DNA of 64,000 nt, taken from positions 4,630,747 to 4,694,746 of the forward strand of contig CAJINV010000001.1 in assembly GCA_905178155.1 (NCBI GenBank). Direction: 5' to 3'. The notes beneath the pieces are model-generated. The model did not search any database, was not told the origin of the DNA, and was given only the letters and a program-made list of their open reading frames with translations. The stretch comes from Amoebophrya sp. A120. Its lineage: Eukaryota > Protista > Dinoflagellata. Both the position numbers and the translations under genes were made by a program. Within the stretch, counting starts at the first letter, position 1. Every line of letters begins with the position of its first letter. Below are positions 388-51,036 of this stretch, in pieces.

Positions 388-3300
388 ATGAGTCTGGACG
401 CCGAAGCGGGGCGAGACTTGATGCAGATGCATGCTTTTTTGCACACCAAGGTGAACCGGACTCCCTCCGCAGCGGGTGGCGCAGCGCAAACAAGCGCGCC
501 GAATCCCGACCCGCGGGAGTTCGTTCCCCGCGCGAAACCGGACTTACGGGACTCCCACCCCAGCGGGTACTGGAGAGCCTTGCGAGCGCTTTTTTCGGCG
601 GAGACGACACTCATCCAAAATGAATGGCAGAACAAGTGGACGGAGGTGCATACGCAGCAACCGGATGAACAAGCAGCCCGAGCGGCGTATCGGCGACACT
701 TCGCAGCGGAAGTGGGGGACACCGCTCACGAAACAGACCTTTTCGACGAGCATCGATCGCAGGCCACGCTGGACAAACGGACGGAGCAGGACTGGACACC
801 GCAGCAGAAAACGAGGCAGGCCCAGGCCATCTTCCTCCTTTCGCACGTGGCGGACCACATCGACACAGTTTACGAGCATCGCGCAGGTGCGGCAAGAGCA
901 GATGTGTCCATAACATACCCAGGAGGGGAGTCAAACGTTAGCGACTTGTCGGACAGTCGCGACTTCGAAGTGGAGGCCACATGCGGGAGAAGCTCCGATG
1001 CAAACAATTCCAAGGTCTTTCACGAGAACAACAATTATTGTGTGAGGATGAAAGTGTATCACTCAGAAAAAAAGAAACCTGTAGCACAGCATGCGACGGC
1101 GTAGACTTTTCGAGATAGTACGTGAATAACGTCTGTCTCGCTTTGTTGCATGTCGGTGACATAAGTGGGGTGGCGGCGGCCCGTAACAGAATTTTGTATC
1201 GATTGCGTCATCACAGAGCCTTTATCAATCATGGCAAACAAGGTATTTTTTCTGTGTCATAAAAGTGTATTTCAGAAATGGGACAAAGACCAGCGTGACG
1301 TCGAGAAGAAGGGGCAGACGTTCGTACAAAAGGGAAAGATTCCGAGACAGCGTTTCGACGGTATCCAGACTACCTACTTCGGAGGCAGTTCCCAAAGAAC
1401 CTGGTACCTACTGGGTCCGGGTGACTATGTCGTGGGCTTAGACCCCAGAAGCAACGGACAATCGGAATACGAAGCGGAGTATCAAAATGAAAAATCCCCC
1501 CTCCCCCATATCAAAAGGGAAATCTATGATGGGATTTGTGTACACAAATCGGATCTGTCTTGCAGTAGAGCACTGCGCGCAGACCCTAAGGCTGGGCCGG
1601 GGTCTTCTGGTGTAGGCCCTTAGCATGGCAGATGTCTGCCCTGTAGGCCTTACAGCATTACAAATCGCCTGTAGAGCGCGGCGGACTCTCTGGATTTGCA
1701 TGGTTGCAAGACAGACAGGATTTGGCCACGAATCTGTGTCGGAAATCTCGAGACGGATGCGTTCGCAATGTGGGGAGGGGGGATTTTTTCCCGCAATACG
1801 GAGCACAACATGGCTCCCCAGTCTGCGTGGCGCGAGTCGTCGACGCCTTCCCACGCCGCCCATGACGATCCGGCCGGAGGGGAAAACAACACGCGCCATC
1901 AACTAGAGCGTGTGGGACAGTGGTACGATCGTCGCGCTGCGAGCGCACACGACCGGTGGCTATACGACGACGGACAGCGACGAAAGAGAGCCTTGGAGGA
2001 GGACATGAAAGAGAAGCTGAGCGCTCGCATCCGTCAATCTATCGCAAGGAAAACTTCCCGTGTGCCCGTGCTGTTCCTACCCCGTTCTTGCGTGCTGACC
2101 CACCTGGCGTAAATGCCCCTTGAAGGAGCTGGTCGGTCAGAATTGAAATTCGCAATGCGCGAAGTCGTTCGACTATATGCATGGCCGCTCCGCTGCTGTT
2201 GCATGAAGCACACCTTTTTGCAGACGCCCAAGCTAGTCTATCCAGTCACATCTTTCTTGAGGGTTGCGTGTGCGTTTTGACTGGTTTTAGGAGCGGCGCA
2301 GATTTGCAGCTTTGCATGAAGGGCTTCAGTCACGCATGAAAATGGACGGCCCGGGCTCGCCTTTGCTTTTCCGCGTGACAAAGGCAGAACGTACTCTCAT
2401 TCGGCACGCCACGCCGGCTCGTCTGGACGGCTTCGTGACGTCCGCGTACAGTGAAAGTGAGCGGACGCGTTTTGCTACCCGGAAGCTGTGGGCGGGGAAA
2501 CTGAAAACTTCGGCGAAGCTGACGCTGCGACAGCGGTGGCTCTGGTACGGCGGTGCCAAGTTTCATGAGTCCATGACGGGGGCCGTGATGCCGCACGACA
2601 GCTTTTTCGGGACGAGCACACCGTGGATGGATTGGCAAGGCAACTGGAATGGAAGATGGCTCGACTACCAGTTCCATGCTGTGGTGCGCGAAACCGGCGC
2701 CGAGGACGATGCAAGCTTCCGGCAGGGGAGCGGCCAAACCGATCCGTGGAACCTCGAAAATTTTCCTATCCTCTGCAAAGAAATATTGCGCAGACGCGCT
2801 TCATTGATCATCTGCTCCGTCCAGTGGTTCGTTGTGAAGTATGTATGTGAAAATCATGTCGTACGTACGTACTGGCGACCCTTGTTCAGGGAAAATCTTC
2901 CGAACCGCCTCAGGGGTCGTGCACTTTCGAAACAGTTAAAACAGACACCCACTGTACTTGCTTGTACGGTACTTACAACATAATTACCGTGTCCCCCTGA
3001 TGGAGAGGGCCAGCGCGATAGATCTTTGCAGTTGATATCTTTTGCGCTACTTCACCTGTACGCCTGGGACGCAGGAGCCCGGATCTACAAGGCGACGCCG
3101 AAACCAAACCGTGAGGCGGTGTGGTCTGAAGCCCCAGCTGAAGCCAAGAATACGTCCGGCGAGTACAGCTACCGCTACAGACCCGTAGATAATGCTGGAG
3201 GTTTTGATTCGCAAGAGCTGGATGCGGAAGGTCAGAATCACCGTGCGGCCTACGGCGCTGCGCTACAACAGCACATAACGGGGGTGCCCTGGGCCCTTGA

Positions 3301-6300
3301 AAACGGTTATTTCGCCCGCGGCTCCCGAAGAAGGCAACAACACACGACCAGAGATGTCAACAACCAGCTCGAGAGTACGAGTAGGGAGGAGTACGAGGAC
3401 GAATGGCAAATTCCGCGACGGCCGGTGCCGGGTACCGGACCTCGGTACCCGGCGCCATTTCGACCTCAGGTGGTTATTACAGGGAAAAATGCACCCACCC
3501 CAAAAGTTGCAATACTTGAGAGTGCGAAGTTTCCAAATGAAAACTTTGTGTCATGCATGAAAGGACTATGAATCTTTCTGATGCAGAGTCTGGTCGTATA
3601 CAGCATCGCCTGCATGACAATCGCCGCGCTTGCTGGGGTATTCTGCAATAACAAATTTTTGCTATTCACGACTGCAAATCTGATATATGCAAGAGGGCGA
3701 GTGTTTCCATTGAAAATGAAAAGGTTTGTAATTACAAATGCTCCCAAGTTCTGTCTGGGGTGAGGGCATTTTTCCTGACAATAGTGGTGGTGCAGAGTTT
3801 AGGGGAGGGCACAGTTTCCACCTCTCCCGTCTTCCGCCACTTCCTGCTGAACTCGTACGTGGGCTCCACGACGATCTCGGCTGCCACGCCCGCGGACGGC
3901 GCGGCGGCTACGGAACTCGAGTTGCGCAAAAGACTGCACGAGCTGCTGGTGCGCGGGCTTTACTACACGTCGCACCGAGCCACCATAGCCGTGTCCTCGG
4001 TTTCGGGACGGCGCAGCGCAGGTGCCGTACTCCTTCCTGGGGGTGGTGCCGGGGCGGATGTGGAGCAGAAGCTGCTGGCGGACGGGTATCGACGAGTGAG
4101 CACCACGGGGGTTAATCCCCCCAGCGAGTGGGAGCGCAGCGCAACGGAAATGCGGCAGCAGCGGTGGTGGACCCTGCGGAGCATCCTGGCCGCGCCGCTG
4201 GTGGTCGAGAAAGACCAGCAGAGCGAGTACCGACTGCAGGTGCGGCACGAGCTCCAGCTGTCGCTGCTGCTGCACGGGTTCGAGCGGACCCCGCAGTTTC
4301 TGCAGGAGCAGGGGCCTCTGCTACTGTTCTACATGGTGGCGCTCTCCGACCCTTGGGGCTTCCTCGATCAGGCGGGGCTGGACCGGGAGCGGTTCGCGCG
4401 GTTCTTCCGCACGCAGGTGCTCGACCACTTGAAGGCCAGCAAGCCGCTCGCAACGTTGATGGAGGCCGTGACGCAAGGCGCCTCGCACCGGGCCGCGAGA
4501 CTGGAGTCTGCGCGCGCCGCGGGCCACGGAGACGTGCTACGCCTCCGGGTGTTCTACCGGCTGTTGTTCAAGCTGTGCCAGTTCCTACGGGCGTTCTTCC
4601 CCGATCTGGAGGCGCCGGACGCAGCAGCCCCCTCGCTATCAAATGCAACTAGGTCGGAGTCTGGATCATCAGTGCACATGCTTGTGGTCGTGCTGTTTTT
4701 CCGTGACTCAGAAGGCATGCAGGCTCTAGCATCACTTACAGGTAGTTTTGAGACGGCATGACAAGTGCGCTGCTGCACTTCCGCTCAGCATGGGCATGAA
4801 GAAATACAACTTTTGTGGAGTAGTAAATTCAAGGACGGAACATATCAACATCCGGCAGCACGTTGCGATGTTTTCGCAGCTCTGCCCCTAGAAAATCTCC
4901 TGCGTCCGAAGCTCCTTGCGGCAACGGAGCAAAGTTCTTTATTCGATTTGGTGCAGTCCGGTCGTATGCATGAAAAAAATCCCCTGTCTCGGTAGCAAGA
5001 CATGGGTACAACTATTAACTTTTGCTGTCCTCTATGTGGGAGAGATTTATTTCTTGGTGTAGGTTGAAATATGCGCATGATCCAGACCTAGACGTGTTTA
5101 CAGTGGATACAACCCCCCGGCGGGCGGTGACGACGTGCAGGGGCTGCGGGTGCTGCTGGAAGGGTATCTGCTGGAGCTGCACCAGCTCGTGGTGGGTGAC
5201 CTGGCCGCGGCCGATCGCGCGCGACGGGCTCCTGCTGCCGACCGTGCAGAGGCGGGCGAAGCGGACGGGGAGCAGGACCGCGCCTGGAACCAACTCAGAG
5301 AGGAGGCGATCTACCACGTGCACCGCGTGAGTCAGGATGCGCTGGTTGTGGAGGCCCTTTTCTTCGGATCCGCCCGGGAAGCGTCCTACGTGTATCACGC
5401 CCGGTGCCGCGGGGGCCTTGGTACCGATAGCGAAGACGGCACCATCAACACGTCACCATCACCCCGGACGAACCTGTGTCTGTCTAACGCCATTTTTCTG
5501 AACTGCCTCTCGCGCCGATATTACCTCGAGTCTGAGCACGCGGGACGGCTAGTGATCGATCAGATGGAGATATCCAAGAAAAAAAGATTGTAGGTGTAAC
5601 TTTTTTGGCTGATCAGCATTATGGCAGGACAGCAGAAACCTGTCATGCGCAGATAGCATGTCAAAACGCGCTTGAATGGACCACCCTGCAATGCATATGT
5701 CCAGCATGACAGACGCAATCATCTTACGTGTTGCGCATCACGACAAACTTACACTAACAATGTTTTTTTCCTGCATAGGAGAAGCACGATCTCGCCCGGG
5801 CGCGGTTGTGGATTCGCCAGGCCGACTACGCCGAGCAGCGGGCTGTGGCTGGCAACCCCCGGAGCTTCGCGAGTGCAAGTACCAGGCATGGAGTCGCGTG
5901 GTGTGTCGTGGATGTGTTCTGGCCACCGGATGCCGGTCGTGAGGAGACGCCTGAGACTCGCCTGGGAGCTTGGGGCACGTGGGGACAGGAAGATTTGTTC
6001 GTGAAAGTTACGGATGGAGGCGTAGAAAAGGCGATCAACCCCATGACGGGGGCCGCGATGCTGGTGGAGGGGCAAGCGCAGTTCGAAAACTTCCCAAAGA
6101 TCCCGCGCGGCTGGGCCCGAAGCCCCTTGTTTCAGCGCCTGTTCTCTCAGCCGTCAGACTTTGTGCAGTGCCTGGTACGGGAGGTGAGCGTTTACGGGCA
6201 GCGGTACTTCCAGATTCGCAATTCTCGGGTACGAGACTTACTCTTTCGCCCGGAGTCCACAGCAGGCGGGGACGGACTGCCCGAGAATTCCAGTCCGCGG

Positions 6301-9300
6301 GTGTACTGGCGAAGGCCGGGCACCTCTGAGCTGTTCGAGTTGTCCCGTGCGGAAGAAGTGGAGGACCTAGCGCGGGAGGTCGAGCGGAGCGCACCCCAGC
6401 TGGGCAAAACGCGGACGGTGTGGACGATATCAAATGCAAAAATGTCTGGGTCTGGAAGATTGCTAGATTTGTGATGCAGGTCTTCCATGACCCACGCGGT
6501 CTTGCATGCACGGCCTAGCGCGACAGGTTCTGTGAGATCTCTATTATGCCTTTGTTCCTGCGTGAGAGACTGTCTCTAAAAAACTTGTTTAAAAGTGGAC
6601 CTCTTTTGGTAATCATGCAACACTTTAGAGCTTGACCCAATCTCCCCGAGATCAAGCCCGTAGGCTTTGTTCGTAAAGGGGGTGACTTTGGTTTTAGAGC
6701 AATCTTCCACTCGTGATAGACAAAGGCTAGTGCATTAAAGGTTGAGGGGTCGAATGAATCACGCAACAGAAATTTTTCCACGATCCAGATGTAGCATGAC
6801 AAGCTACACTCTTCCTGACCCAGACATTTCTTCAATGTATAGACGACACTGCGGGACAAGTTTGACTTTTGGGTGAAGCAGAACCCGGACGAACGGGGGA
6901 CAGCCGCCGCGTTAGCGCCGGCGGTCTTACTGGCTGTGAAGCGGGAGAGAGCACGGGGGGAACCAGAGCCGCTCATCCCCTATCCTGAGTAAAAACGTCC
7001 CCACACCAGAGATGTAATGCAGATTTGCAAAGACAGGAAGACTCGTAATACGCATCCCCATGAGAGCCATTTCCAATCGTGTTTTGGAATTTGTGATGCT
7101 CTGAACAGGATGAGCAGATGAATCTGTGATGCGGCTGCACTTGCTAACCTGCACTACACTGCAGAGTGCAACTTGTCATGCGTGACTCACAAAACTCCTA
7201 GGTTTGTGTTGCAAAATCCCCATCCTGACTCTGGTGTGGCTACGTTTTTACTCAGGATATCCCCTCGGGCGTAGTCAGTCACCCGCAGGCGATGTTCACA
7301 CTCACGGAGGCGGGGTACCTGACGCCCCACCGCAGTGACTCCACGGGCTTGCCGAAAGACTACGCAAACCTGTTTGGCACAGTGCAGGCGTATCAACATG
7401 CAGCTCAAGAACGCGGCGTGGGCGGCGAGGGCCGGACGATCTCGTGGCGCCTGCTGGCGCAGGGAAATATCGTTGGCGGGGATTTGGACCAACAAGCCTT
7501 AGTGCGGCAGTTGCTTCGCAGCGGTGGCAGGGATGTGACCGGCCTAGACCTGAACCCACAGTATGTCCGCGACATGGTCGGACGGGTGCGAGAGGGCAAG
7601 GGAATCACGCAGATGGGCATTTCTATGAAGTGCAAGTATGTTGTCTGGGTCCTCCGGAAGACCGCAGGACGAGTTTCCCATGCTATTGTTCCATGACCCG
7701 ATGAAAGGTCTAGCATGCAAGCCCTGATATTTTACAGGGTTGCAGAAGTAGGTGTCTCAAACTCAATGACTAAGCCGCATGTTGACAAGGTTCGTCTACT
7801 TCCGGCGTGTCAGTAAAGTGGGCATCAACTTTTGCTGTCCATGCATGACAGATTTTTGTGCGGTTTCATGTGCGCACGACGAGTTTGCACGCTTCCAGAC
7901 CCAGATCGATATTTGCAATGCATAATTTCGGTGGAGGCGCAACTGAGTTGGGAGGCGCATGAAGTACCAGTACGCGAGGACGGGTCCGCCGAGAGGCTGA
8001 TCGCGAACGCAGTGCAATTTCCGTTGCTGGCTGCGGGGCGCGGGGACTCCGCCACCTGGTTGACGTTTGTGCGGCCGGGGGAACTCAGCCCGTGGCACCG
8101 CTATTGGCACGCAGCCGAGGACCCGACGTACGTCCTCGCGCGAAGGGCCGTCGTTCCCGGATGGCCGAGCTTGCGCCACGCGATTGCCTTGCGCGAACGC
8201 CCCGCACGGCCGGAGGATGATGTTGACGATTATTACAACCACGTAGTACAAGGAGCAGGAGCAGCTGCACAAGCGCATCGCAACATGGACGAGGTCCAGC
8301 GGACGGAGAACACGTGGACGCAGCTGCGTTCGTTGCGGCTTCTGGTCCTGCGCACCGCACTGCCGCTGCAGCAAGCCCGGAATATCGACCTGATTCGGGA
8401 CTACGCCGTCACGGTCCCGGAGCTTCGTGGCATCCAGGCTGCAGGAGCGCCACTGCCGCAATACGTTGTGATCGATGCGAAAACGCAGGATCAACAACCT
8501 TACGAGGAATTCATAATCCAAGCAGAAGGCGAGGGCGACACACAACTACAGGAACAAGCTCCGCAGGAGCCAGGTGCTGGCGCGGCAGTTCAAGTCGAAG
8601 AGCCAGGTCAGTGCCCGATATGTCTGGACGACATTGATATGAACAGCCAAGAGTACGTTTACTGCGCGGGAGGTCGAAGACTTAACCACTATTTCCACAA
8701 GGCATGCAGCGGGGATCACGCCAGGGAAAACTCAGAGGCGCGGTGCCCATTGTGCAGAGAAGCAGGGGGGTTTAGGATTGCCAATGCTGGTCCAAACATG
8801 GGCAGCCGGTACCCGCCAGCCAGGAATGCGGCGGCGGGAGCTCCTGCGGCGGCGGGAGCTGCACAGGAGGTGGATTTCTTTTCTGTAGTACCGCGGCGCG
8901 AAGACGCAAGCTGGAGAGGCCCGTCCGAGGAGGTACAGGTTGCCCGACCCGACGTCGAGCGTGCAGAGTTGAATGCGCCTTTCCTCGGCGACGCGGAGGC
9001 GCAGACGCAGGCGGAGCTGTACCTCGCCTACCTGTCGTATGGAAGTGCCATGCGGGGAATCCTCGAATTCGATCTATATTGGAACAATTTGAATGCAGAT
9101 GCACCCCCCGCCATTTCTACAACCAGGCTCATGCGAGTCGTTATGGTGGTGGCCCGAGAATGATGGCCGTGGCACTTCTCGGTTGCCCGTGTCGTACTCA
9201 TTCTCCGTGCGCGACGCCCTTCATCTACGCCCTATGGCCAGTAGGAAGGCAAAGGACGCCGCGTGTTTGTAGTTTAGTGTGAGTCCTCTCTGTCTCCACC

Positions 9301-12300: not shown

Positions 12301-15300
12301 GTGCGCCTCGTCGCCGAGGACCCCTACTTGGGGATGGATCTGGTCTGGTGGCGGGAGAAGCTCCGCGCCGAGACCGCGGTCACATTCGCGCTCGTAGAGA
12401 AGGTCCGACTCTACTGCGTGGCGTACCTCTTGCTGCAGTCGCGCCTCACGCAAACCCGCGCAGTTTTGCGAGAGTTGGCCGCGGCCCAGCAGCCCGACCA
12501 TGTTGCGGGTGTGCAGCCACCACACGAACTGACGGAGACGGCGGCGCGGAACTTGTGGGACCTAGGCCTGTCCCAGTGCATGCGGTACGACCCGGCGGTG
12601 TACCCGATGTACCTCGCGTTTGACGCCACCCAGGGCTTGATGATGTGGCCGGCGCAGGTGGAGACCCTGAAAAAGCTCGTGCAGCGCGAAGTACACCTCC
12701 TGGAAACGGGTCAAATCGTGAAGACCTCGGGCTTCTCGCCGCGGCTCCTCCGGCAGCCCTTGTTCAGCAGTCCGCTGGTGGCCCTACCAAATGAAATCAG
12801 CAGTGCAGCCTCGTCCGGCGTTTTGTGGCGCGTGACCGGGTTCGGCGAGGACAAGCGCTGGGTCGAGGTGACGCACCCAGCAGGTGCTGGTCTTGAGGCC
12901 GGTGGCCCCACCAGCACGACCACCGGATTTGTGTGGTACACGGACTTGCAAGTTCCGGACTCCGTCTTCCTTCCGGGCGAGCGCGTGCGCTTCCGCTCGC
13001 TGCCGGCGGGAGGAGATCAGTCCGTCGTGCGGAACGGCAGTTTCGCGCGGGTGCGGTACGTCGCGAACAGCAGCGAGGGCGTGCAGACCGCGGACGCGTT
13101 CCTGGTGCTGGAGCTGGAGGAGCAGCCCGGAGCCGCGCAGCAGCCTCCGTACACCCCGGTCACGGTGAAGCTGGACTACCCAACCGCGTACGCGGCGTTG
13201 GAGCGCGTGGAAGATGAAGCGGAGTCCTCGTCCTCGCCGGGCAGCACGCAGCTCACCTCGTTCACCAGCGTGTCCGAGCAGCTGCGCATGGGCGCCGGGA
13301 AAACCAAAGTGTTGTCGGGCCTATGCATTGCAAAAGTATCGTACTAGTATAAATTGCATTACAAATTTTATCAGAAAGAAAAATGGAATTTGTAATGCTA
13401 ATTCAGGTAAAAAGGTCGGTTTGTCATGCATGACTGCAATTCATACGAGTACGATACTTTTGCACAGGATAGGGCCGGACCCTCGCGACCGTGGGCAGCA
13501 CGCACCGCATCCCGGTCTTGGTGTTCACCGACGCCCTGCACGCGTCCAACACGCAGGACATCCGCAGCACCGTACGCACGCAGGGCAAGGACGTCGAGGT
13601 TTTGTCCTTCGCGGTGCACGCGAACGGCACAGTGGGCTACCTGTCCTGGCTAAAGAACAAGCTCCTGGAAGCGAAGCGCACGGGCCAAGTGATTTTCACA
13701 GCGAAGGCGAAGGATCTGCAGGGCCTGGTGGCGGCCGTTAACCTGAAGTTCGAGAAGCTGCGCACGTTGATGCGCCAGGTGCACGACTCGCAGATGTGGA
13801 TCGAGCGCGAACGCCGCGCCCAACCGGATGCAGTCGGTGCGGAGGAGGACGACGACGAGATGGAACAGCGGCTCTACGCGCAGTGGCTCGGCAGCATGCG
13901 TCGCAATGTGCAAGCCAATGATGTCCTGGAGGGTATGAATCAGGAGTATCGCAACTGCGTCGTCAAGGTTCTGGGCATGGACGAGGGACGCCTCGCGCGA
14001 AAGGAGCGCCCGGAGCCGGAGTGCGCCAACGGCGAGTCGGCCCTGGCGCCCCTGCAAGAAAGGGCGTACCAGGCCGGGGAGACCATGCGGGTGCTGTTGC
14101 TGCTGTTCGAGGTGCTCGACATTCTGTCCAGCGACGGCCACACGCTGTTCGACGAAGTGGATTCCTTGCTGGCCTGGAACAAGCAGCTGAATCTTCCGGC
14201 GGGCGACCGCATGCCGGTTCCGGCCACCTCTATCAATGAGGTCATGAAGATCTGGTGGGAGTTGCTGATGTGCGACAGCCACGAACTCGCGGAGGAAGTA
14301 GTAGGCTCGGGAAGCGCTGGCCCCGCTGCAGTCCAACCACCTGCGGCCGCGAGTCCTTCACCTCTTCGTGGCCCAGATGGCGCACCGGCCGCGCCGGCTA
14401 CTGCTGCGCAAGCAACGACTGCTGCCGCCGGCCTGGCCCGGACGAGGACCACTCCTGCGCCGCGGTACAAACGGGTTCTGGATTTGGTCGTGCGGAACGC
14501 GCACAGCAAGATGCCGCAGTCCTTCTACGACGAGTCGATTCTGCCGAAACTGGCCGACGATGTTTGCCGCCGGCTGGTCAAGGAGACGCTGGGAAAACCA
14601 CAGAAGCGGCCGGGGGACGACGTGGCCAAGGTTCGGTTCGGGGAGGGCCAGTTGCAGCGGCAGCAGGACAACTGCAAGGGCTTTCTGCTGTCCACTTCGC
14701 TGCACCACTTTTCCAGGGACAACAAGGGAATGGCGCTGGACGCATGGAGCTTCATCAACACACTCCCGCGAACCGTCCCGCTGTACGACCAGGTCCGCGA
14801 GAGCGGATCCGCGGCCAAGCACGTGCTCGGGAACATCGCGCGCGAGTCGCTGTCCAAGCAAACCAACGTGCACTACGGGCGCAGCCAGATTGTGCACGAC
14901 TTCGAGGGGGCCATGCCCTACAAGGCCGCGGAGACCCCGAGCGAGTCTTCCAAAACGGAGATGTCGCTCTACAAGGACGTGTACGAAGCCATGAGCAAGA
15001 CCATACTGACCTACCTGTCCGAACCGTGGGACGCGGAGATGGCGACGAAGGACGTGTTCGTACTGCCCGGGTTTGCGACCTCCACCGAGAGCATCAGCCA
15101 GCGACTGGCGCAACAAGCCCAGCAGGCCGGACCGCTCGCGCAAAAGAGTCGCCGCGTCCCGCAGAAGATCAGCGAGCTGCACTACCAGACGCGCCGCCTG
15201 ATCAAGCTGATCCGCCGCGAGTGCCGCGAGAATTTCGGCCGGAGTGACACGGACCACGCGCTCAAGCCGCCGGACAACTTCTTCCTTGGTGTCGAAAAAT

Positions 15301-32475: not shown

Positions 32476-32574
32476 TAGTCGCGTGTCTTATGTGGTTTGT
32501 TGCTGTGTACGAAAAGGTTTGAGTGAAATTTTAACAAAGGCTAAGAAATTAAAAGCAGTGCAATTCAGCACGAG

Positions 32575-33762: not shown

Positions 33763-35748
33763 ATGCCGCCGGCCGCGAAGAAGAACGCAATGAAGAAACA
33801 GTCGCCCGCCGCGAAGAAGAAAACCGCAAAGAAGTCCTCCGCGGCGGGGAACACCAAAGGGAAGAAGAACAACGCGAATGCGAAGAAAAGCAAGAAGAAC
33901 CGCATCGAAGACCATCTGAACCGCGTGGAGGCCGCGTTGATTTTCGGTTACGGGTGCCCGCGACACCCGGTCCTGGAAAAAATGCTGCGGCCCTGCCTTG
34001 CCGTCTGCGACTCCGGACGGCAGCCGCTGCAGAAAAAGGGCGTGGAGATGCTCTCCGCGCAGGTGCATCACATCTCCAACGTGTTGACCAAAAAGTACCA
34101 CGAAAAGCGGGACTTCATCCACAACGCCCCCCTGATTCAGGCGGACATTGTGAAGACCGCGGACCACCTGGCGCAACAGTTGCACAACCTCAACGACCAG
34201 CACGACGGCTTGAAAGCCCGGCTCAACCAGGAGGAGAGCTTCGAGCAAGACGCGAAACAGGCCGTGCAGGACGCAAACAAGTTCCGGGAGGACGTGTATT
34301 ACATACTTGCTCGCTGTTATTGTTTTTTCGTAAACCTAAATCCGCTCATGAGTGAAGTGGAAATTTTGATTTTTGCCAAATCGTTACACCGTGCGGTTTC
34401 AATTGCCAAAGTTATGACATAAGACAGAGAAATTCTGTAAGGAGAATATCAAGCTTGAATGAAAGCGATGTTTTTTTACACAAAATACAAAACAGGTTCA
34501 ACGCCACGCCGATTCTGTCCAAGCAGCTGCAGCAAGTCCGCGAGGTGGAGAAGAACCAGTTTCAAAAGATGCTGGACCACCCGCCGCAGGGCGCGAAATT
34601 TCAAAAAGAGATGAAGCAAATCAGCAACCTGTTTGAGAAGGTCGTGGAGCTCGACGAGGCGGTGCTGGTCGCTCTGCCCGCCGCCCTGCAGAAGCTATTG
34701 AGAGGAAAAATCCCCCCTCCCCATATTGAAAAGGTATGTTTTCGAAAATTTGTGTTGCTGATTTGTGACCACAAATCAGGTTTGTCTTGCAAGAAGAAAA
34801 GTGCAGAGGCATCCGCCCAATTGTGGAAGCGATTTGGCATGCTGTTGGTCCTAGAGGGTAGCCGTTTGCAATTCTGAACAACTAGACCTGAGCGCTCCAA
34901 CCTAGGCTGCGGATCTGGCCGCAGTGCCTTACCGCAAGACAAGTCGGATTTGTGTACGCAAATCAGCATCAGAAATGTCCATTTTGATAGGGAGAGGGGG
35001 GATTTTTCATTTTGATAGAAGCTGCCGGCCAACCGGGGCCCCTTCGACGACATGACGCTGCAGGAAACGAAGAAGCAGCTGCGAAATTGGATTCTGGACA
35101 CGGAGTTCAAAATTGGCAACCAGAGCAACCGGGAACTGGACGCGGACGCGAAGGTACTTGTTTTTACTGGTCTGATGGGAGGAGCTGGAGCTGCTCTTTC
35201 TGGTTTTGGATTTTTAATTTTAGTAGAATACTGGCTTCATGATCATCGTCAAGAGAATAAAGAAAAGTTTTGCTGGTGCAGCTGTTCTCATACTTCAAAT
35301 ACCACTAGAATGAGGAGGGGGGACGCATTCCGCGTGTTATAGATATGATATCTCTGTGTTTGCACATCATCATCAGGTGAAGCATGCGGAGGACGAGCTA
35401 CAGCAGTGCAAGGCGAACACGCAGACCGCCCGGGAGCTGCTCCAGACGGTGGACGACAATTTGAAGCGCAACAAGGAAGAAACCAAGGAGAATGAAAAGC
35501 GGCGAAAAACGCATCCCAAGAACGTGGAGAGCGCGGAGATCGAGCGGCAAGAGGCGGAGAAGGACGTGCACAAGTTCGCGGATGTTTTAGCCAGCTTTGA
35601 ATTTCTCAAGAATCGCGCCACGACGGACGGCTCGGATGCGTTGATGCTGGGCGACCGGGAGGGTTTGCTGGAACTGGAAGATTCACCTATGGGCGACGAG
35701 GACGACGACGACGACGAGGACGACGAGGATGAGGACGACGAGCTGTAA
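33763..35748 (+). CDS. Hypothetical coiled-coil protein with Lys-rich N-terminus and acidic C-terminus
   Basis: GC-rich exons joined across probable GT-AG introns (~34294-34496, ~35154-35376) and TIR element 34696-35017; no family recognised. Confidence 0.7.
34696..35017. mobile_element. TIR intron element, family B, reverse orientation (322 bp)
   Basis: TATTGAGAGGAAAAATCCCCCC...GGGGGGATTTTTCATTTTGATA; DR GAAGC; interior resembles the reverse complement of the 1480 copy. Confidence 0.92.
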
Positions 35749-37215: not shown

Positions 37216-39023
37216 ATGCGGTTCGGTCTTTTTATACCGCTTGTCTTCCGCATCACAAATGCTGCTAGCGATACCGGGTTCTCCTACGACTACAGCAGAC
37301 ATGGGGCCGACTGGGTCGCGGGCATGTGCTCCTCTACCGAGCGGCAGAGCCCCGTCGCGCTCACGACCGCCGGGCTGGCCCCGACGGGCAATCTCGTGTA
37401 CAATTACATATCGGACATGGAGCACGGGTTCCCGATGCTGAATAACGGACATACCATCACCGCGGACTTCATGGGCCTCGGCGTAGGGGGTCTGGCGTAT
37501 AACAACGGGTGGTACAATATGCACAGGAAAATATAAACCCATCCACATCCAATTTGTCATGCAAAACACGTATCAAGTCACGTGTTTGTCATGCAATAAA
37601 TGGATTTGGATGGGTTTTTCTTTTTTTCTGTGGATATACAATCTTCTGTCCGTAAACTTCCACAGCCCCAGCGAACACGTGTACGACGGGCAGCACTTCC
37701 CGCTGGAGGCGCATTTGGTTCACAAACGGTCGGACAGCGACCACTTAGTCATCGTTGCCGTTCCCTTCAGCGGGGAGTCAGGCAGCGCCGGGTCGTCAGG
37801 CAGTAGCGCGGGAGGAGGTGCGGCGGGAAGTGCAACGGCGTTTCTGGAAAAAAGACGAGAGGTTGTCGCTCACGCGAACAAGGACAACTTTTTGGAAGAA
37901 GAGTTGTCAACTTCATCCACTGCGAGAAGAAAGCAGTCGGCGGGGTCCCTGCTCGCTTCGTTTGGGTTAGGCATTCCGGCCAACGTCGGCCAGACCATGT
38001 TCGCGGCGCCACCCGTGGATTTTGCGCAGTTTTATGGTGAAGGCGGGGAGTTTGTCGAGTACGGCGGCAGCTTGACCGCGCCTCCCTGTGCAGAGACCGC
38101 AACGTGGTTCGTTCGTAAAGAGCCGGTTGCAGGTAAAACTGTAGAAGTTTGTGCGGTCTGCAACTTCTATGTGAAGATGCGCCTACGTAAAAATCGTGAT
38201 TTACATTCATTATCATAATTCTACTCACCTGTCCGGCGTGAAGAACCACGAATGACTCTGGTAAAATTTACCACCACCTCAAGAATATCCCAGGCGCCGA
38301 AGCGGACGTACCAAAGTTCGCGACCGCGATATTACAGTGAAAAGTGCCCCCCACCCCCAAAGTGGCAAAAATTTGTGATGCGAAGTTTCCAAATGAAACC
38401 TTTTTGTCATGCATGAAAGAAATATGAATATTTCTGATGCAGATTCTAGTGGTGTTTAGCATCGCTTGCATGACAAGCACCGCTCTCGCTGGGATCTTTT
38501 GCAATGCAAATTTTTGCTATTCACGATCGGAAATCTGTGATGCTGATACATGCAAGAGGGCGAATGTTTCATTTGGAAAGGTTTGCAATACAAATGCTTT
38601 CAAGTTCGGGGGTGGGGGCGTTTTTCATTGTAATACGCGATCATGCAGATGACGAACGGGCAGGGTAACAACCGACAGCCGATGCCTCTGAACGGGCGAC
38701 CGGTGGCGCTCCGCACCGCCGTGCAGGAAAACCCACCGGCCGCGCAGCCGCCCGCCAGCATGTCCGCAAGTGGGTCGCAGTCGGAGGGGGAAAAGCAGTC
38801 GCAGCGCGAGTACCAGGCACTGATGTGGGCGAAGGAGGCGATGGAGGAGGCGAAGGCAGCGAAGGAATACGTGAAAACCCTCGACGACAAACTGCGCGCA
38901 TCCACGCCGGTGGATCCAACAACCGGGTCCAGTCCGGCTGCCGCGGCAGCGCCCGCTGCCGCCCCGACGGCGGCAGTAGTCACGGACGTGTCCCAGGTCG
39001 CGACGCCCATTCAGGCCAGGTAA
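37216..39023 (+). CDS. Alpha-carbonic anhydrase-like protein, probable signal peptide
   Basis: YDYSRHGADW, RQSPVAL, NNGHTI, NFHSPSEH..LEAHLVH, YGGSLTAPPCAETATWFV, NNRQPMPLNGR. Two TIR elements and one GT-AG intron (~38133-38293); the 3' end could continue past a GT at 39020. Confidence 0.88.
37518..37636. mobile_element. Minimal TIR intron element (119 bp)
   Basis: TATGCACAGGAAAATATAAACCCATCCA...TGGATGGGTTTTTCTTTTTTTCTGTGGATA; DR TACAA; spliced GWYN/LLSVNFH. Confidence 0.9.
38330..38635. mobile_element. TIR intron element, family C (306 bp)
   Basis: TATTACAGTGAAAAGTGCCCCCCACCCC...GGGGTGGGGGCGTTTTTCATTGTAATA; DR CGCGA; spliced ATA/IMQMTNG. Confidence 0.93.
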
Positions 39024-39810: not shown

Positions 39811-42239
39811 ATGAAAGGAACTACGGCTGCAGTCCCACCCCGAGCCCCTTTTGCCGGTTTTCGGTTTTACCTGAAGCTATGTTTGGTCTACTCCACCCTG
39901 TTTGTCCTCCTCCCGTTCTACTTCCTCGTCCCACCGCTGGAGCAGAGCTTCTACCTCTTGCTGCTTTTCAACCTCATCCCGCTGATAACCACCCATGTGT
40001 GGTTTTGGATCCATATTCTCGGCACGGTACCGCTGTTGATTCTCCTCTTTCCCATGTTTGCTTTACTCCACCCGGAATGGGACGCGGCCATCCTTTTCGA
40101 GGGCGCGGCGCCGGCGCAGCTTCCGGTGATTTACTTCCACCCAGACCTCGCGGAAAGGTTGGATCACAAGCTCGCGTGGAGAAAAGCGCTGGAGGCAGAA
40201 CGAGTTCCCATGCCAGACTTGGTGGGAGTCCTGCAAATAGAAATCCGGAGAACTACTGGTGTCGACTTTAGATCTTCTGAGACGACGGAAGACAACGACG
40301 CCAGTAGTGCTGCCGGAATATTAAACGAGGATGAACGAGAGGACGACGAAATGGACGACTCTTCGGACCACCACTCTTACCTGGGTCTCTACGGAAGCCA
40401 CGACCACCACGACGTGTTTGACCACGCTAGCGGAAAGTACTTAACCTGTGTGCGGTTTCAGGACGCGCACGCATGGCGAAAAAATAGCAGAAGTGGTAGC
40501 GAAGGAGTAGATCGTGAAAAGCAGAAAGGTCAAACAGAAGCAACGGAAAAGAAGGAAATCGCAGGAGCAGCTGGTGCGCCACATCACCCGGCAGATGAGG
40601 GGCTGAAAATGATTGACCTTGAAAAGCAACTCGTGATCAAGCCGGACGTCGGGACGTTTGGCATCGGTGTGCAGGTCGAAAGTTTGCGAAACTTTCTGCA
40701 CGCTACCAAAAGTAAAAATGTCTGGGTCTGGAAACTTGTGATGCTGGGTGGCGTCTCATGATGAGGCTGCAAATGCTGGCTCAGCATGACAAGTTTCTGA
40801 GCTCCTAGGTGTTGCCTATTCTGCATGACAAACTGCGCTTCTGCATCACAGAAAAACGGAGCTCTTGGGCAACGTGCGTGACAGATTTAAGAGTCATGCC
40901 AGACAAGCATGACAAACATGAATTTTTCCAGACCCAGACACTTTTACATTTGATACACGCGCGGTTACTGCAAAAAGGCGTGTCTTTTGAGGAGAACATC
41001 GAGAAGAGCGGCGTTGCGGGAACATTGGAGAAGTTGGCGTGTCCTCCCCAGGTGGACGGTGTTCTTGCCGCTGCTGGTACAACTGCAGAAACTAGTCTGG
41101 TGGTCACGTCGCGCGAAACCTACATCATTGAAGAACTTTTGCACGACGCCGAGGACAGTTCACTGGCACGGACCTACCGGCTAACCACGATGATGGACCA
41201 TCGGCGCGGGGAGGGAAAGCAAGCCGTGACAGGAGACACGAAATCAGTACAGGACGTTGATGAACAGGAAGGCAATTTTTACGAAATGAAGAACACCGAA
41301 ATGCTAGAGAACAGCGACGCAAGTAGAACTCCTGCGACTTCATTACCCCGGGCCACTGCCGTGGGGCTTTTGCAGGTTGCGGATAAGGCTAGCAAGCAGG
41401 TGTCGAATCGCGGTGAAATCGAGGTTTTGGATCCGTCTACTGCGTTCGACGGCTCGAAGAAGGAGCTGTCCTACGAGACCACTCGCGACCAGGTGGTCCG
41501 GCTCCACAGTGCGTACTTTCCCCAAGCCCCCTCTATCGGCTGGGACCTGCTCTTCGACGCGAGTCGCGGCGGTTTCGTGGTGCTGGAGGGAAATCTCGGC
41601 GCCGGCATCTGCTGGCGAAACGCGGTCGCCTGTCCGAAGCTGTTAGCCACGGCGGACACGTTCTTTCGGGCCTTCTACCGGGAGCGGGTGGTGCCGAGAT
41701 TGAGAAAGCACGTCGCGCTGTATTTCGGGGTGTCGCCAGTGGAGAACGATTTGCGAGCTTTTTTCTCGACCATGGCCTTGATTTTAACCGTCAACGCGAT
41801 CGTTCTCACCGTGCCATTCACGGTCGTTTTCGCGTGTCGACGGCTAATGATCTGTGCGTGTCTGCCGATAACAACAGATCTCGATGAAAGCGGTCTAGAT
41901 GCGGACATCGAGAGCAATATCAACGATAGGGATGAAGTTCCTGAGGAAGACGGCGCAGCTTCGGTGAACAATCAGAAAGGTATCGTATCCATTGCGTACG
42001 TGCAGGGACGACCTTCCGCGCAGGACAGCGCTGCAGTCTGTTTTTGTTTCCCACGTATAGCGGGAATATTTTGTCGCAATTGCTTCTTGCTAACATGTGG
42101 TTTCCTTCACCGAGTTTTCAATTGTGGACCTAGTGTGCAGACAATAAAGATACCCTCCATGTGGTCCGACTTTCATTTCAAAAAAGTCGCCTCCCAAGAA
42201 GCAAACGACATAGAACTTGGAGCCTACGTTCGCGAGTAG
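39811..42239 (+). CDS. Membrane-anchored ATP-grasp fold protein (sugar-transfer-associated ATP-grasp-like)
   Basis: N-terminal hydrophobic helices; DHKLAWRKALEAERVPMP, LVIKPDVGTFGIGV, YIIEELL, IGWDLLFD..FVVLEGN; C-terminal hydrophobic helix; interrupted by TIR element 40704-40955. Confidence 0.7.
40704..40955. mobile_element. TIR intron element, family A (252 bp), starts TAC
   Basis: TACCAAAAGTAAAAATGTCTGGGTCTGGAAA...TTTCCAGACCCAGACACTTTTACATTTGATA; DR CACGC; spliced FLHA/RLLQ. Confidence 0.92.
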
Positions 42240-43117: not shown

Positions 43118-46100
43118 ATGCAGAATAACATGTCAAATTTCAACTACGGGGACTTCCTCGCGTCCTGCGAAGAGGAGTTACTGAACGCCGACAGTATCGA
43201 CGTGTCTCTCGACCGCGTGAGTCAAGTCACAGTGGGTACCAGCAAAGCGTCCTCCTCTGTCAGCCGGGTTCGGCTGCACGTCAGCAGCAGGCGGAACAGC
43301 GTCGTGTCCACAACCGTCAGCGAGTCGTTGGACGTGCGGTACAGGACGGCGTTGTTGGAAGATGATGAGTGCGGCTCCGAAAGTGAAGACGAGGAGGAGA
43401 TCGGACAAAGATCCTCCCGGTACGTCACCGTCGCTGCCGCGGGAACAACGGTATAGGATTTTGCATTTAAGTACGTACTTTATGAATGTCATTTTTAGCA
43501 GGCGGTTCGTGTCGCTTTCGGGCAGTGACTGAAAGAAATAATTGGAAGAAAACATCATGTTCGTGTTTGAGATGAAAACAGTAAAACCAGAAGACCAATA
43601 AAAATGATCCCTATACCATAGGTATGCGCCCGCTCTTCTGCCGCAGAGAACAACGACGACGGCGGCACAACAAGCGCCATCGCATCACGCGACGCCAATG
43701 CGAGCATGCGATTAGAAAACCTTACCTTAACCCCCTCCTTGCTCCCGGTGTTCGCGGCCTACATCGGCACCGCGGTGAAATCGCTCGCCAGTTCGCTGCC
43801 GGCGCCCGCGTTGACCGCCATCAACCAGTTGCCGATGAAGGTCTCCGGCTTTTCGCCCACGGATTTCGACGCCACGGTGGTCGGGCACGAGTTGCAGACG
43901 CACGTCGGGCTACTCTCCCTCGCCTCCTCCGTCGGGTTTATCGGTTCCCTGCGCGGCTTGAACAACATGAAAACCGCGAAGCAGGGCAACTACATGGGCA
44001 TGGCGGCTACCGCGATGGGGATCCTCTCCGTCCTCGCCAGTCCCGGATTCGGCGCGCACTACGGCCGCTTCCTCGCCTGCTTCCTCGCGGCGGGCGGCGT
44101 GGGCTACACCGTCGCGGAGTCCGTCGCCATGGAGGAGATGCCGCAGCTAGTCGCGGGCTTCCACTCCTTCGTCGGCCTCGCGGCCGCGCTCGTCGGCTTC
44201 GCAAACCACTTCGACGGCGGCGCGATCACCGGCTTGCAACTGCTGGAAGAGTACCTGGGCGTGGGCATCGGGGCCCTGACCTTCACCGGGTCGGTTGTCG
44301 CGGCGGGCAAGCTATCAAATGTAAAAATGTCTGGGTCTGGAAGAATGCGAGATTTGTCATGCACGTTTTGCATGAGCCATGATGTCTGTGATGGATATAC
44401 CCTAGCAATAGAGATTTTTTGAAGGCTTCTTGATGCCTATTCCGCATGACAAATGCCTTCTCAGCGTAGCAAAAATTGCATTCCCTTTGGTACTCATGCA
44501 ATACAGATTTTTTTGGAATCTCAATGTAGCATCACAAGTTGCATTCTTCCAGACCCAGACATTTTTACATTTGATACAAGTTGCACGGATCAATCAGCGG
44601 CGCACCGGTGATTTTGGACCAGAGGTGGACGTTGAACGGGATGGCATTCGCCGCGTCCGCGCTGATGGGCCTGCTGTACATCCAGGGCGGCGGCCACACG
44701 ACGTACCTGGTGTTGAACGCGCTGGCCTGGGCGGGCTTGGGGGTCAACATGGTGATGCCGGTCGGTGGGGCGGACATGCCGGTGGTGGTCTCCCTGTTGA
44801 ATTCCTTTTCCGGTATTGCCACGTCCGCCGCGGGCTTCATGCTCCGAAACGACTTGCTCACCATCACGGGTGCGCTCGTCGCTTCCTCCGGTGCGCTGTT
44901 GTCCAGCATTATGTGCAAGGGGATCAATCGGAGTCTCGCGAACGTCCTGCTCGGCGGCTTTGGCACGGACGGCAGCAGTGTGCCCTCGGGCGGCGCCAGC
45001 GGGTCCGGTGGTCCGCAGGGCCAGCACCGCGAAATGTCGCACGACGCGTGCGCGCAGGCGCTGTGTGAGGCGAAGCGCATCGTCATCGTGCCGGGGTACG
45101 GACTCGCGGTCGCGCGCGCGCAGCAGAAATTGCAAGAGTTGGTCTCTACCCTCCGTGCGATGAAGAAGACGGTGCACTTCGCGATCCACCCGGTGGCTGG
45201 CCGGTTGCCGGGACACATGAATGTGTTGCTCGCGGAGGCGAACGTGCCCTACGAAATCGTGCGCGAGATGGACGAAATTAACGACGTGATCACCAGTTAC
45301 GATGTGGCGATCGTGATCGGGGCGAATGACATTGTATTTTTTTGCTACAAGAACGCGTTTTAGTGGTTTTGATTCTTTGACATTCTGGTCGATCATGTAT
45401 GAACAATTTTATTTGCATCTCGACCACAGGTTAACCCAGCTACCGTTTCCGACACGAGTTCCCCTATTTACGGCATGCCGGCGATCGAGATTTGGAAAAT
45501 CCCGCGTTGCATCGTGCTCAAGCGGTCGATGGCCACGGGCTACTCCGGCGTGGAAAACCCGCTGTTCTATCTGGACAACGTGCGCATGCTGTTTGGCGAT
45601 GCCCGCGCCAGCACGGAGCAGCTGGTCACCATGGTCAACGAGAAGAAGCAGAACCACCAGGGCAGCAAGACGCAGCCGGAGCCGGAGAGCGAGGAGGAAA
45701 CGCTCGAGTTTTTGAACCGCGACGAGGAAAAGAACTTTCCGGAACCCAACAAGGTCCTGGGCATTCTCAAGGAGAACGCCGCGGACGGCAAGGAAAAGCG
45801 CGTCAGCGTTACCCCGAACGTGATCCCGAAGCTGCGGAAACTGGGCTTCAAGTTGGTCATGGAGTCCGGTGCGGGCGAGCAGTCCAACTACCCGAATTCC
45901 AGTTACGTGGAAAAAGGAGTGGAAGTCCTCCAAAGTCGCGACGAGGTGTTCAAGCAGGCCAATGTGGTTCTGCAGGTACAGATGTATGAGATCATATCTT
46001 CTTATGTTTTGTGTTTTGATTTAGCGATTTTCATTTTTGGTTGAACAAATCTCCACCCGCCTTTTTATCTTCATGTAAGAACTAGGGTTGCGATTCTTGT

Positions 46101-48929: not shown

Positions 48930-51036
48930 ATGGTTCGACTCCAGCCCGGGAACAAGCCCGGCGCTGCGGCGTCGGGCGGTGGGGCGCGCGAGAAGGAGCA
49001 GAAAAACAGCGACCTCACCGGGAATACTATGCGAATACAGACGGCGCGCGGCAAGGTTTATCTTTTCGGAGTCCGCCTGTTTCAGAACGACTGGACCGGC
49101 ACGGTGATAACCGGGTTGATTCTCGGTATATTCGTGGCCAAGTGCTGCGGCTACTTCGGATGGTCCGCGCCGGGGTCGGACGAGGCGTATTACACCTTGG
49201 CGTGTCTGTTTCTTATCTACGGCATGCTGCTGGCTGCGGATCTGCAAAAGAGCATCGGCGTGGACGTGGTACTCCTCGCTTGCCTTTCGGTCGCGTTTCT
49301 GATAAAACACTCGGATTCCATCCTGCACCCGAGTAGTAACTTTGAGGTCAACTGGGTCCGTCCGGTGGCGTTCACGGTGTTTGGAATACCAATACAGAGC
49401 TTCGGGATCTGCATGGCCGCGGCGTTTCTGGTGTGCCACGAACTCGCAGAACGGGAGTTCTCAGTGAATAAGGTATAGAATTATATTTTTCCGGATGTGC
49501 GACACCGGATGAAATTTTGATTGTTCCTTGTTCCCTACGTCATCATTGATTTCACAAACATATCACCCATTTCAGATAGAATGTGCCGCGGGTCCGCTTT
49601 TGGTTGCAGCGACGGTCGGGGGCCTTTTCGGTGCAAAGGTGCACTACGTAATCTTGAATGCCCACATAGACGACGCCGCGTTTTTTGCCCCAGGCTTGGT
49701 GTGGCAAGGCGGAGCACTCATGGGGGCTGCCTGCGTTATTGCGTACGTGAAGGTACTAGCGAATTTTGTCAACTGCGGGTTCTTCATCTGCTTGACGCAT
49801 AATCTATCAATTGTGCATGACTAGTATTACATCAAAAAAAACCGGCACAAAGTCTCGTCCACAGAACCATGAAAATTCTCATCGACAGTCCTTCTCCACT
49901 GAGATCGTTCACCGCGTATTAGACGTGTCCGCGCCCTTGCTCCCGCTCGGGCACGCGATCGGAAAAATCGGCTGCTTTGTCTCGGGCGACGGTTGCTACG
50001 GCCCCCACAGCAGCTACTACTTCGCGATGAGCTTCCCGCACGGTCGGCTGCCGACGAAAAGGCCGGTGCACCCGACTCCCATCTACGAAATGATCCTTTC
50101 CGGGCTGGTTTTCCACTACCTGTGGACGCGACGGCACGTCGCGCTGTGGTTCAAGGGGGACTATCAAATGTAAAAGTGTCTGGGTCTGGAAGACTCATGC
50201 TGTTTTTGCATGACACAGAAGGTCTGGCATGGAAGCTCTAGCATCACACGTCTCGAGAAGCTTCCGCAATGCCGAATCCGCATGACAAATGCCGCACTCT
50301 GGTGACAGAAAGTGGGCAACTTTTGCTAACTATGCATGAGAGATTTTTATGTGTTGTGAAATGCGCATCACAAGTTTGTCTTCTTCCAGACCCAGACATT
50401 TTTGCAATTCATAGGGACCAAACGACGCTGATGTTCCTCCTGACCAGCGTCACGAGGTTTATCACGGAAATTATTACAATGAAAAATGCCCCCACCCCAG
50501 AACTTGGCAGCATTTGTATTGCGAACCTTTCCAATGGAAACACTCCCCGTCTTGCACATATCAGCATCACAAATCCTCCATGCTGAATAGCTCAGATTTG
50601 TGTTGCAAAGGAGCACAACAGCAGCCGCATCTGTTATGCAAAAGATACCTTGCGCACCTAAATTCTGCATCAGCAATGAATGCTCGTAGTCCTTTCATGC
50701 AAGACGAAAATCTTTCATTTGGAAACTTTGCATGAGAAACTTTTGCCGGGGGCATTTTTCATTGTAATAGAAATTTGGCGAGACCACAACCACGACGGCC
50801 AGGCCGAGCCGCTGTGGCCCTGGAATCAGCAGCAGATGATCTGCGCCTGGGTCTTCGTCTTGTCCTGCGTCACCCGACTACTCATCCGATGGCAGGCATT
50901 TGTAGAAACGAGCAAGGCCAACGCGCCATTAGTGCCTGGAGAGAACAAAGGGGAAGAAGGGGGAAAGAACGCAAATGAGAGCAACGCCAGACAAACCGTA
51001 AACACGGGTGGCACCACATCGAAAAAGAAAAGATAA
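48930..51036 (+). CDS. lgt: Prolipoprotein diacylglyceryl transferase (Lgt)-like protein
   Basis: PVAFTVFGIPIQSFG, GGLFGAKVHYVI, GLVWQGGALMG, LDVSAPLLPLGHAIGKIGCFVSGDGCYG, VHPTPIYE, RFITEIWRD. Two probable GT-AG introns and two TIR elements. Confidence 0.85.
50162..50413. mobile_element. TIR intron element, family A (252 bp)
   Basis: TATCAAATGTAAAAGTGTCTGGGTCTGGAAGA...TCTTCCAGACCCAGACATTTTTGCAATTCATA; DR GGGAC; spliced FKGD/QTTLMF. Confidence 0.93.
50472..50769. mobile_element. TIR intron element, family C, reverse orientation (298 bp)
   Basis: TATTACAATGAAAAATGCCCC...GGGGCATTTTTCATTGTAATA; DR GAAAT; spliced RFITE/IWRD. Confidence 0.93.

What the first reader, a model, noticed from the sequence alone, without database searches (positions are those of the whole stretch)
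1480..50769. Shared end code across unrelated families: TAT-N7-AAAA ... TTTT-N7-ATA
Families whose TIRs are otherwise unrelated align on one spacing: TATCAAATGT-AAAAA (A), TATCAAAATG-AAAAA (B), TATTACAGGG-AAAAA (C), TATCCTGAGT-AAAAA (6981), TATGCATTGC-AAAA (13322), TATGCACAGG-AAAA (37518), TATCCAAGAA-AAAAA (5571). The 3' ends mirror this. The 57290 element and some degenerate copies deviate. Inference: this is the recognition signature of one transposase or excision factor. It also places a U-run 11-15 nt from the 3' end in either orientation, which could serve as a polypyrimidine tract.
Basis: partly seen in the sequence, partly recalled or inferred. Interest (0 to 1): 0.75.

Follow-up and report, generated by a model that had tools for sequence, protein, structure and literature searches.

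The report
Published end code of jumping introns
The shared end pattern is real but already published: it marks small transposon-like inserts, likely spread by one transposase, that interrupt the genes of what is likely the marine parasite Amoebophrya and, where RNA could be checked, are cut out of the message to the exact base.

Summary
The pattern is real: TAT-N7-AAAA occurs 52 times against 4.6 expected, and 34 of the 52 are ends of 23 short elements with inverted repeats and mostly 5-bp target duplications. It is already published. Farhat et al. 2021 describe Amoebophrya A120 introner ends as TAT, seven variable bases, then at least three As. Gozashti et al. 2025 list one A120 family as Ginger, '5-bp TSD, TA/TA termini'.

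RNA contigs skip element plus one duplication at 2 of 8 sites laid. Reading frame fits that cut in 81 of 87 scorable cases.

The A-run survives family weighting but is absent from 3 of 11 multi-copy families. The polypyrimidine idea gets no support. The families are not unrelated: 312 of 314 copies carry an internal GCATGACAA-like motif, which I did not find in print. It suggests one transposase, which I did not find. The scan has noted similar hairpin introns in other genomes, but not this sequence.

The parts
1057..1261 (.). element, 205 bp, TAT..ATA, 6-bp flanking repeat
2767..3037 (.). degenerate element, TIR 18/25, no clear TSD, no A-run
3475..3783 (.). element, family C, exact 5-bp TSD
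4637..5109 (.). degenerate family-A-like element, 473 bp, no clear TSD
5571..5777 (.). element, ~210-bp family, exact 5-bp TSD
6428..6841 (.). family A element with extra internal DNA, exact 5-bp TSD
6981..7259 (.). element, ~279-bp family, exact 5-bp TSD
7624..7924 (.). degenerate family-A-like element, exact 5-bp TSD, A-run broken at both ends
13322..13471 (.). element, ~151-bp family, exact 5-bp TSD; removing it with one TSD joins 979 and 1322 stop-free codons
22767..23033 (.). family A element, exact 5-bp TSD
26397..26719 (.). family B element inside a NOL10-like gene, exact 5-bp TSD
31666..31928 (.). family A element, exact 5-bp TSD; an RNA contig piece starts at 31929
34696..35017 (.). 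family B element, exact 5-bp TSD
37518..37636 (.). 119-bp element upstream of a carbonic anhydrase match in the same frame, exact 5-bp TSD
38330..38635 (.). family C element, exact 5-bp TSD; an RNA contig piece starts at 38636
40704..40955 (.). family A element with TAC start; RNA contig skips 257 nt = element plus one TSD
   Evidence: (X4 record 7)
44313..44576 (.). family A element in the NAD(P) transhydrogenase beta domain; RNA skips 269 nt = element plus one TSD; folds as a long hairpin
50162..50413 (.). family A element, exact 5-bp TSD
50472..50769 (.). family C element, exact 5-bp TSD
57290..57517 (.). element of a family without the A-run; exact 5-bp TSD, 4 internal motifs, joins 579 and 173 stop-free codons
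59341..59602 (.). family A element, 5-bp TSD with one mismatch
59660..59973 (.). family B element ending in ATG, exact 5-bp TSD
43625..45333 (+). two host exon stretches of the transhydrogenase gene on either side of the 44313 element: PNTB profile positions 4-140 upstream and 142-388 downstream

Best explanation
These are short non-autonomous inverted-repeat elements (introners) of the published Amoebophrya A120 type, likely all mobilised by one integrase-like (Ginger-type) transposase, which sit in either orientation between 5-bp duplications and are removed from mRNA together with exactly one duplication at the two sites where RNA shows the joint. Step 1 (inferred): a transposase supplied in trans binds the repeated internal GCATGACAA-like sites, cuts at the TAT..ATA ends and inserts with a 5-bp stagger. 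The A-run is a frequent but dispensable part of the end. Step 2 (shown at 2 sites by RNA, supported by frame in 81 of 87): the transcript loses element plus 5 nt, which restores the pre-insertion message whatever the target sequence. Step 3 (inferred): the paired ends fold into a hairpin that brings the two duplications together, and the cut falls inside the duplication with no fixed splice dinucleotide.
For: Farhat 2021, section 11, gives the same end motif for A120 introners, and the Fig. S19 legend shows 5-bp direct repeats. In Gozashti 2025 Dataset S2, A120 fam38 is TIR DNA/Ginger with '5-bp TSD, TA/TA Termini', and the text reports ORF homology to Copia/Gypsy sequences. In 145 metagenome loci carrying the same families, 271 of 291 five-bp-TSD/TIR pairs start with TAT. 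Of 385 TAT..ATA pairs chosen without any TSD condition, 269 have an exact 5-bp TSD and 41 have one mismatch. The internal motif is in 312 of 314 copies, at 16.2 per kb against 0.32 per kb in shuffles. GCATGACA, derived from the largest family alone, is in 57-100% of copies of each of the other 10 multi-copy families and in at most 2% of shuffles. 29 of its 30 window matches lie in the 23 elements. RNA-like contigs X1 and X4 skip 44308-44576, and X4 skips 40699-40955, in runs whose contigs also skip four GT-AG introns. PNTB runs 4-140, one split codon, then 142-388 across the 44313 element. Orientation is near random (40:39 in the largest family), and the first TSD base is G in only 63 of 194, so no AG acceptor is required. 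The 44313 element folds as a hairpin with z = -8.7.
Against: No autonomous element or transposase was found. Of five candidates over 600 bp, three are chance pairings of separate copies and two are family-A copies with inserts. Those inserts' short ORFs were only read by eye, and only about 0.6 Mb was searched. Farhat 2021 found no transposase in A120 and argued against general transposase-mediated mobilisation. A 5-bp TSD is not the 6 bp typical of IS3EU/GingerRoot. RNA joints are shown for only 2 of the 8 elements laid, from assembled contigs whose RNA status is a guess, and the tables were truncated. The frame test only resolves length modulo 3, and 6 of 87 cases disagree. The internal motif could bind a splicing or chromatin protein instead. 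No call names the host.
Confidence: 0.7

Rival explanations
1. The end code and internal motif are kept by the splicing machinery, not by a transposase. The U-run 11-15 nt from the 3' end would act as a polypyrimidine tract and the motif as a protein-bound splicing signal, so different transposons converge on one splicing code.
For: The elements are removed exactly despite lacking GT-AG. U1 was not found in Amoebophrya. One of the four RNA-shown GT-AG introns has TTTT in the same register. GCATGAC contains a weak branch-point-like UGAC (recalled consensus).
Against: The run is not better kept at the sense 3' end (9 versus 16 discordant cases). Three families lack it and still keep frame in 4 of 5 copies. 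In 58 predicted GT-AG introns, T is 0.16-0.28 at -15 to -12 (only 1 of 4 known introns was recovered exactly). 0 of the 4 RNA-shown GT-AG introns carry the internal motif. Splicing alone would not fix the duplication at 5 bp.
Confidence: 0.15
2. The elements are excised from DNA in a life stage or nucleus, like ciliate internal eliminated sequences (recalled analogy), and the end code is the excisase signature.
For: Removal of element plus one direct repeat, whatever the sequence, is what precise DNA excision would give. X1 and X4 are RNA only by guess.
Against: The X1/X4 contigs also lack four GT-AG introns, so they are mRNA. Contigs of the DNA-like run X8 (flat depth about 45) run unbroken across the flanks about 26 nt into the elements (records 15 and 16), and no excision joint is among its listed rows (512 joints not shown). 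Only one DNA run was laid.
Confidence: 0.05
3. The families descend from one old element. The shared ends and motif are inherited remnants, and several enzymes or an RNA-based copy route (reverse splicing) now spread them.
For: Loose single-linkage BLAST joins 302 of 314 element cores. Farhat 2021 favours a copy-paste route and found no A120 transposase.
Against: Invariant TAT ends (0.97-0.99 family-weighted) and a fixed 5-bp duplication beside 33-35% identity in neighbouring end positions indicate ongoing constraint. Both orientations occur equally, which reverse splicing would not give (inference).
Confidence: 0.1

Closest known systems
Introner elements of Amoebophrya sp. A120 (Farhat et al. 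2021, PMC7789003)
   Same: End motif TAT + 7 variable nt + at least 3 A, inverted repeats, direct repeats at the exon/intron border (5 bp in the Fig. S19 legend), non-canonical junctions, hairpins, co-oriented genes.
   Different: The paper gives direct repeats as 3-5 nt and rules out general transposase mobilisation. Here the duplication is 5 bp in most copies, and an internal motif links all families; I did not see that motif in the text or supplement text.
A120 introner families in Gozashti et al. 2025 (PMC12130899), especially fam38
   Same: TIR DNA elements of about 106-320 bp, similar to my family medians of 109-321 bp. Fam38 (about 808 bp) is listed as Ginger, '5-bp TSD, TA/TA Termini', with LTR-integrase-like homology.
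   Different: Only fam38 is given this class. Most of the other 57 A120 rows carry superfamily 'Unknown' (one is Mutator). No fam38 sequence was available to compare with these elements.
IS3EU/GingerRoot and Ginger2 DNA transposons (PMC10045372, PMC6839031)
   Same: TA..TA termini (IS3EU/GingerRoot), integrase-related DDE transposases, 4-5-bp TSD in Ginger2 according to PMC10045372.
   Different: IS3EU/GingerRoot TSDs are usually 6 bp and GingerRoot TIRs 100-150 bp. Ginger elements end TG..CA. No transposase is in hand here.
Introners of Micromonas, Aureococcus and Polarella; non-canonical introns of Fritillaria and euglenids (review PMC11282704)
   Same: MITE-like introns with TIRs and TSDs that are spliced out.
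   Different: In Micromonas one splice site is carried and one co-opted from the TSD, and Fritillaria favours AG-AC/AG-AT. Here no splice dinucleotide is fixed.

Membership tests
Amoebophrya A120-type introner elements | Ends begin TAT, 7 variable nt, at least 3 A | tested here: met
   34 of 46 window ends with AAAA; 16 of 21 families have majority AAA
Amoebophrya A120-type introner elements | Terminal inverted repeats forming a hairpin | tested here: met
   fold z = -8.7 for one element
Amoebophrya A120-type introner elements | 3-5-nt direct repeats at the borders | tested here: met
   exact 5 bp in 18 of 23 window elements and in 269 of 385 TSD-blind pairs
Amoebophrya A120-type introner elements | Repeated, in families | tested here: met
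   21 families among 314 copies; depth of 1e4-1e5 over elements against about 45 in flanks in X8
Amoebophrya A120-type introner elements | Spliced from mRNA at non-GT-AG junctions | tested here: met
   2 of 8 elements laid are skipped in RNA-like contigs; frame fits in 81 of 87
Amoebophrya A120-type introner elements | Host is Amoebophrya | not tested
   No call names the host. Inferred from the motif, family lengths and co-oriented genes (204 net + of 208 coding bins).
IS3EU/GingerRoot | TA..TA termini | tested here: met
   300 of 353 pairs are TAT..ATA
IS3EU/GingerRoot | 6-bp TSD | tested here: not met
   5 bp; a 6-bp repeat in 1 of 23 window elements
IS3EU/GingerRoot | Integrase-like DDE transposase in autonomous copies | tested here: inconclusive
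   none found in about 0.6 Mb; whole genome not held
Ginger1/Ginger2 | TG..CA termini | tested here: not met
   ends are TA..TA; TG..CA
U2-type GT-AG intron with polypyrimidine tract | AG acceptor and GT donor at the junction | tested here: not met
   first TSD base is G in 63 of 194; joint read as CA..TA at 44307/44577, able to slide 4 nt

The most novel reading that the evidence does not exclude
All TAT-ended introner families of this lineage, including those without the A-run, are one superfamily. They are moved by a single TA-ended, 5-bp-TSD Ginger-like integrase that binds a repeated GCATGACAA site, and they are excised from RNA by a sequence-blind route guided by the hairpin and the duplication, cutting inside the 5-bp repeat. 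The junction diversity reported as unprecedented would then simply be random target sequence.
Probability: 0.45. Interest if true: 0.55.

Novelty: already known. Interest (0 to 1): 0.22.

Why it matters
The headline motif adds nothing to the literature. The side results bear on an open question: Farhat et al. could not say how A120 introners spread or are spliced without U1. A shared internal site, a fixed 5-bp duplication, equal orientation and removal of exactly one duplication give direct tests: find the fam38-like integrase, test binding to GCATGACAA, and map cut sites at mismatched duplications. They also give a simple annotation rule: delete the TAT..ATA element plus 5 nt.

Tried and rejected
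Viral-contig hits L001 and L002 for the family-A end are chance matches inside an AT-rich phage helicase-like ORF. Three further viral scans gave 0 hits.

L058:3331-9527 (6,197 bp) looked autonomous but is two separate copies of the 151-bp family with host exons and other elements between them. L055 (1,031 bp) and L070 (4,208 bp) are also chance pairings of separate copies. L061 (972 bp) and L042 (631 bp) are family-A copies with inserts, and their short ORFs show no obvious integrase by eye; these ORFs were not scanned against Pfam. A crude integrase-motif search of 1,493 ORFs from the loci printed no hit.

A G bias at the first TSD base, seen in 10 of 20 window copies, vanished in 194 oriented copies. 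G1-only versus C5-only was 54:32 (p = 0.023), but G is equally common at TSD position 5 (65 of 194), so this reflects strand composition.

Rfam found 0 matches in the window. The 2026 raw-read run X12 matched only element ends, so it gave no splice data. No genome is held for the window or the loci. One search failed on a frame slip and was rerun. RNA joints were read for window 31200-51100 only; the 15 elements outside that stretch have no RNA check.
Full report
Observation. The cited ends are present at the cited places. TAT-N7-AAAA matches 52 times on both strands, against 4.61 ± 2.10 in 100 shuffles. A scan that assumed neither TAT nor an A-run picked out pairs flanked by exactly 5 bp: 16 of 19 pairs at k=5 start with TAT, and none do at k=3, 4, 6, 7 or 8. 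Relaxed scans gave a catalogue of 23 elements. 34 of 46 ends carry the full motif, and 18 of 23 elements have an exact 5-bp duplication.

Setting. The window is eukaryotic, with Pfam matches to RING, NOL10, ion channel, carbonic anhydrase, transhydrogenase and L22 domains (8 of the 23 ORFs matched). Its genes lie almost all on one strand. No genome is held.

Already in print. Farhat et al. [quoted passage not shown] Their Fig. S19 legend shows 5-bp direct repeats. They found no transposase in A120 and rejected general transposase mobilisation. Gozashti et al. 2025 (PMC12130899; passages, supplement legends and all 58 A120 rows of Dataset S2) class most A120 families as TIR DNA of unknown superfamily. 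They class fam38 as Ginger with '5-bp TSD, TA/TA Termini' and report LTR-integrase-like homology. That the host is an Amoebophrya of this kind is my inference; no call names it.

Splicing. In window 31200-51100, which holds 8 catalogued elements, RNA-like contigs of X1 and X4 join 44307 to 44577 (269 nt = 264 + 5), and X4 joins 40698 to 40956 (257 = 252 + 5). The same runs skip four GT-AG introns. Two more contig pieces start at the first base after an element (31929, 38636). The other four elements are not among the rows shown. The DNA-like run X8 runs into the elements and lists no such joint, though 512 joints were not shown. The two duplications at 44313 differ at base 5, and the RNA has the downstream base, so the 5' cut lies before base 5. 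PNTB profile positions 4-140 and 142-388 flank this element.

A larger sample. One metagenome scan with the family-A end gave 145 loci, about 0.6 Mb, holding the same families. The contigs listed all share one accession prefix. The sample is biased to family A, and other families are incidental. Of 353 five-bp-TSD/TIR pairs from these loci plus the window, 319 were within one mismatch of TAT..ATA (34 dropped) and 314 remained after removing duplicates. They form 21 families, 11 of them multi-copy. But three multi-copy families have no A-run. In 194 of 314 copies that could be oriented by a codon model trained on window ORFs, keeping one duplication fits the frame in 81 of 87, 48 of 49 and 21 of 21 cases at rising stringency. 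The test resolves length only modulo 3. Orientation is about even in the seven families checked, and the first duplication base is G in 63 of 194.

The families share an internal repeated motif, GCA[AT][GCT]A[CG]A[AG], best seen as GCATGACAA. It occurs in 312 of 314 copies, at 16.2 per kb against 0.32 in shuffled elements and 2.0 outside catalogued elements, where uncatalogued copies remain. The pattern was fitted after the fact, so I derived the top 8-mer from the largest family alone: it is in 57-100% of copies of each of the other 10 families and in at most 2% of shuffles. In the window, 29 of 30 matches (2.4 expected) lie in the 10% of bases covered by elements. Repeated internal sites are typical transposase binding sites (established knowledge, recalled); that role is inferred here. 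I did not find the motif in print: paper searches and a text search of the Farhat supplement. Figures, theses and subscription papers such as Roy et al. 2023 (seen only as a reference) were out of reach, so it may be described there.

Polypyrimidine idea. It is not supported. The A-run is kept only at the sense 5' end in 16 copies and only at the 3' end in 9 (153 both, 16 neither), although selecting for paired ends dampens any asymmetry. Families without it keep frame in 4 of 5 scorable copies. 58 predicted GT-AG introns have no T-run at -15 to -12, but that predictor recovered only 1 of 4 known introns exactly. One of those four known introns does have TTTT in that register.

Transposase. 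Not found. TA..TA ends fit IS3EU/GingerRoot, but their duplication is usually 6 bp (PMC10045372 and PMC6839031, passages), so I do not file the elements there. They work like integrase-mobilised MITEs, and fam38 is the best lead.

A weak lead. Among 57 duplications with one mismatch, 34 differ at an outer base, against 40% expected (p = 0.004). 19 of 29 scorable mismatches are synonymous, against 31% expected at random, but p = 0.07 against an even mix. This could mean the cut slides within the middle bases, or that matching inner bases are needed. It is not settled.

Earlier scan notes on other genomes describe similar hairpin introns. None covers this genome or sequence. They did not shape the reading, which was set. 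The review PMC11282704 was read in passages.

Verdict. The headline is already known. Interest is low (0.22), carried by the shared internal motif and the one-duplication rule.

Noticed in passing
window 36408-37058: A 651-bp foldback element with 127-bp arms (91% complementary) and AG..CT ends, with no TAT ends and no clear duplication. It is multi-copy in X8 (bin depth 2,335-4,118) and holds three copies of the same internal motif.
   Followed up: partly
all elements, window and L003-L147: Internal repeated motif GCATGACAA shared by every multi-copy family; not found in print.
   Followed up: yes
57 elements with one duplication mismatch (window, loci): Mismatches favour the outer bases (34 of 57) and are often synonymous (19 of 29), which may reveal where the cut falls.
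   Followed up: partly
window 10486-17441 and 17551-22836: Very long ORFs without a Pfam match; the first is joined to 979 + 1322 codons once the 13322 element is removed.
   Followed up: no
L058:3200-9700: Extreme density: at least 11 repeat-covered segments in 6.2 kb, separated by short exons.
   Followed up: partly
L061:6790-7761, L042:3862-4492, window 6428-6841, window 4637-5109: Family-A copies carrying 150-700 bp of extra DNA. The L042 insert is about 70% similar to a stretch elsewhere (L010-L012), which suggests capture of host DNA.
   Followed up: partly
window 1057-1261; L055:6329-6608: Rare 6-bp and 8-bp flanking repeats on otherwise typical elements.
   Followed up: no
window 2767-3037 and 4637-5109: Elements with inverted ends but no matching duplication; their RNA junctions would place the cut without ambiguity.
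   Followed up: no
run X12 at window 44527-44576: A 2026 run with the same species label matches only the family-A end, with different internal and flanking sequence, so it likely comes from another strain or locus carrying the family.
   Followed up: no
L021:3577-3817: A 17-nt tandem array paired with an inverted copy.
   Followed up: no
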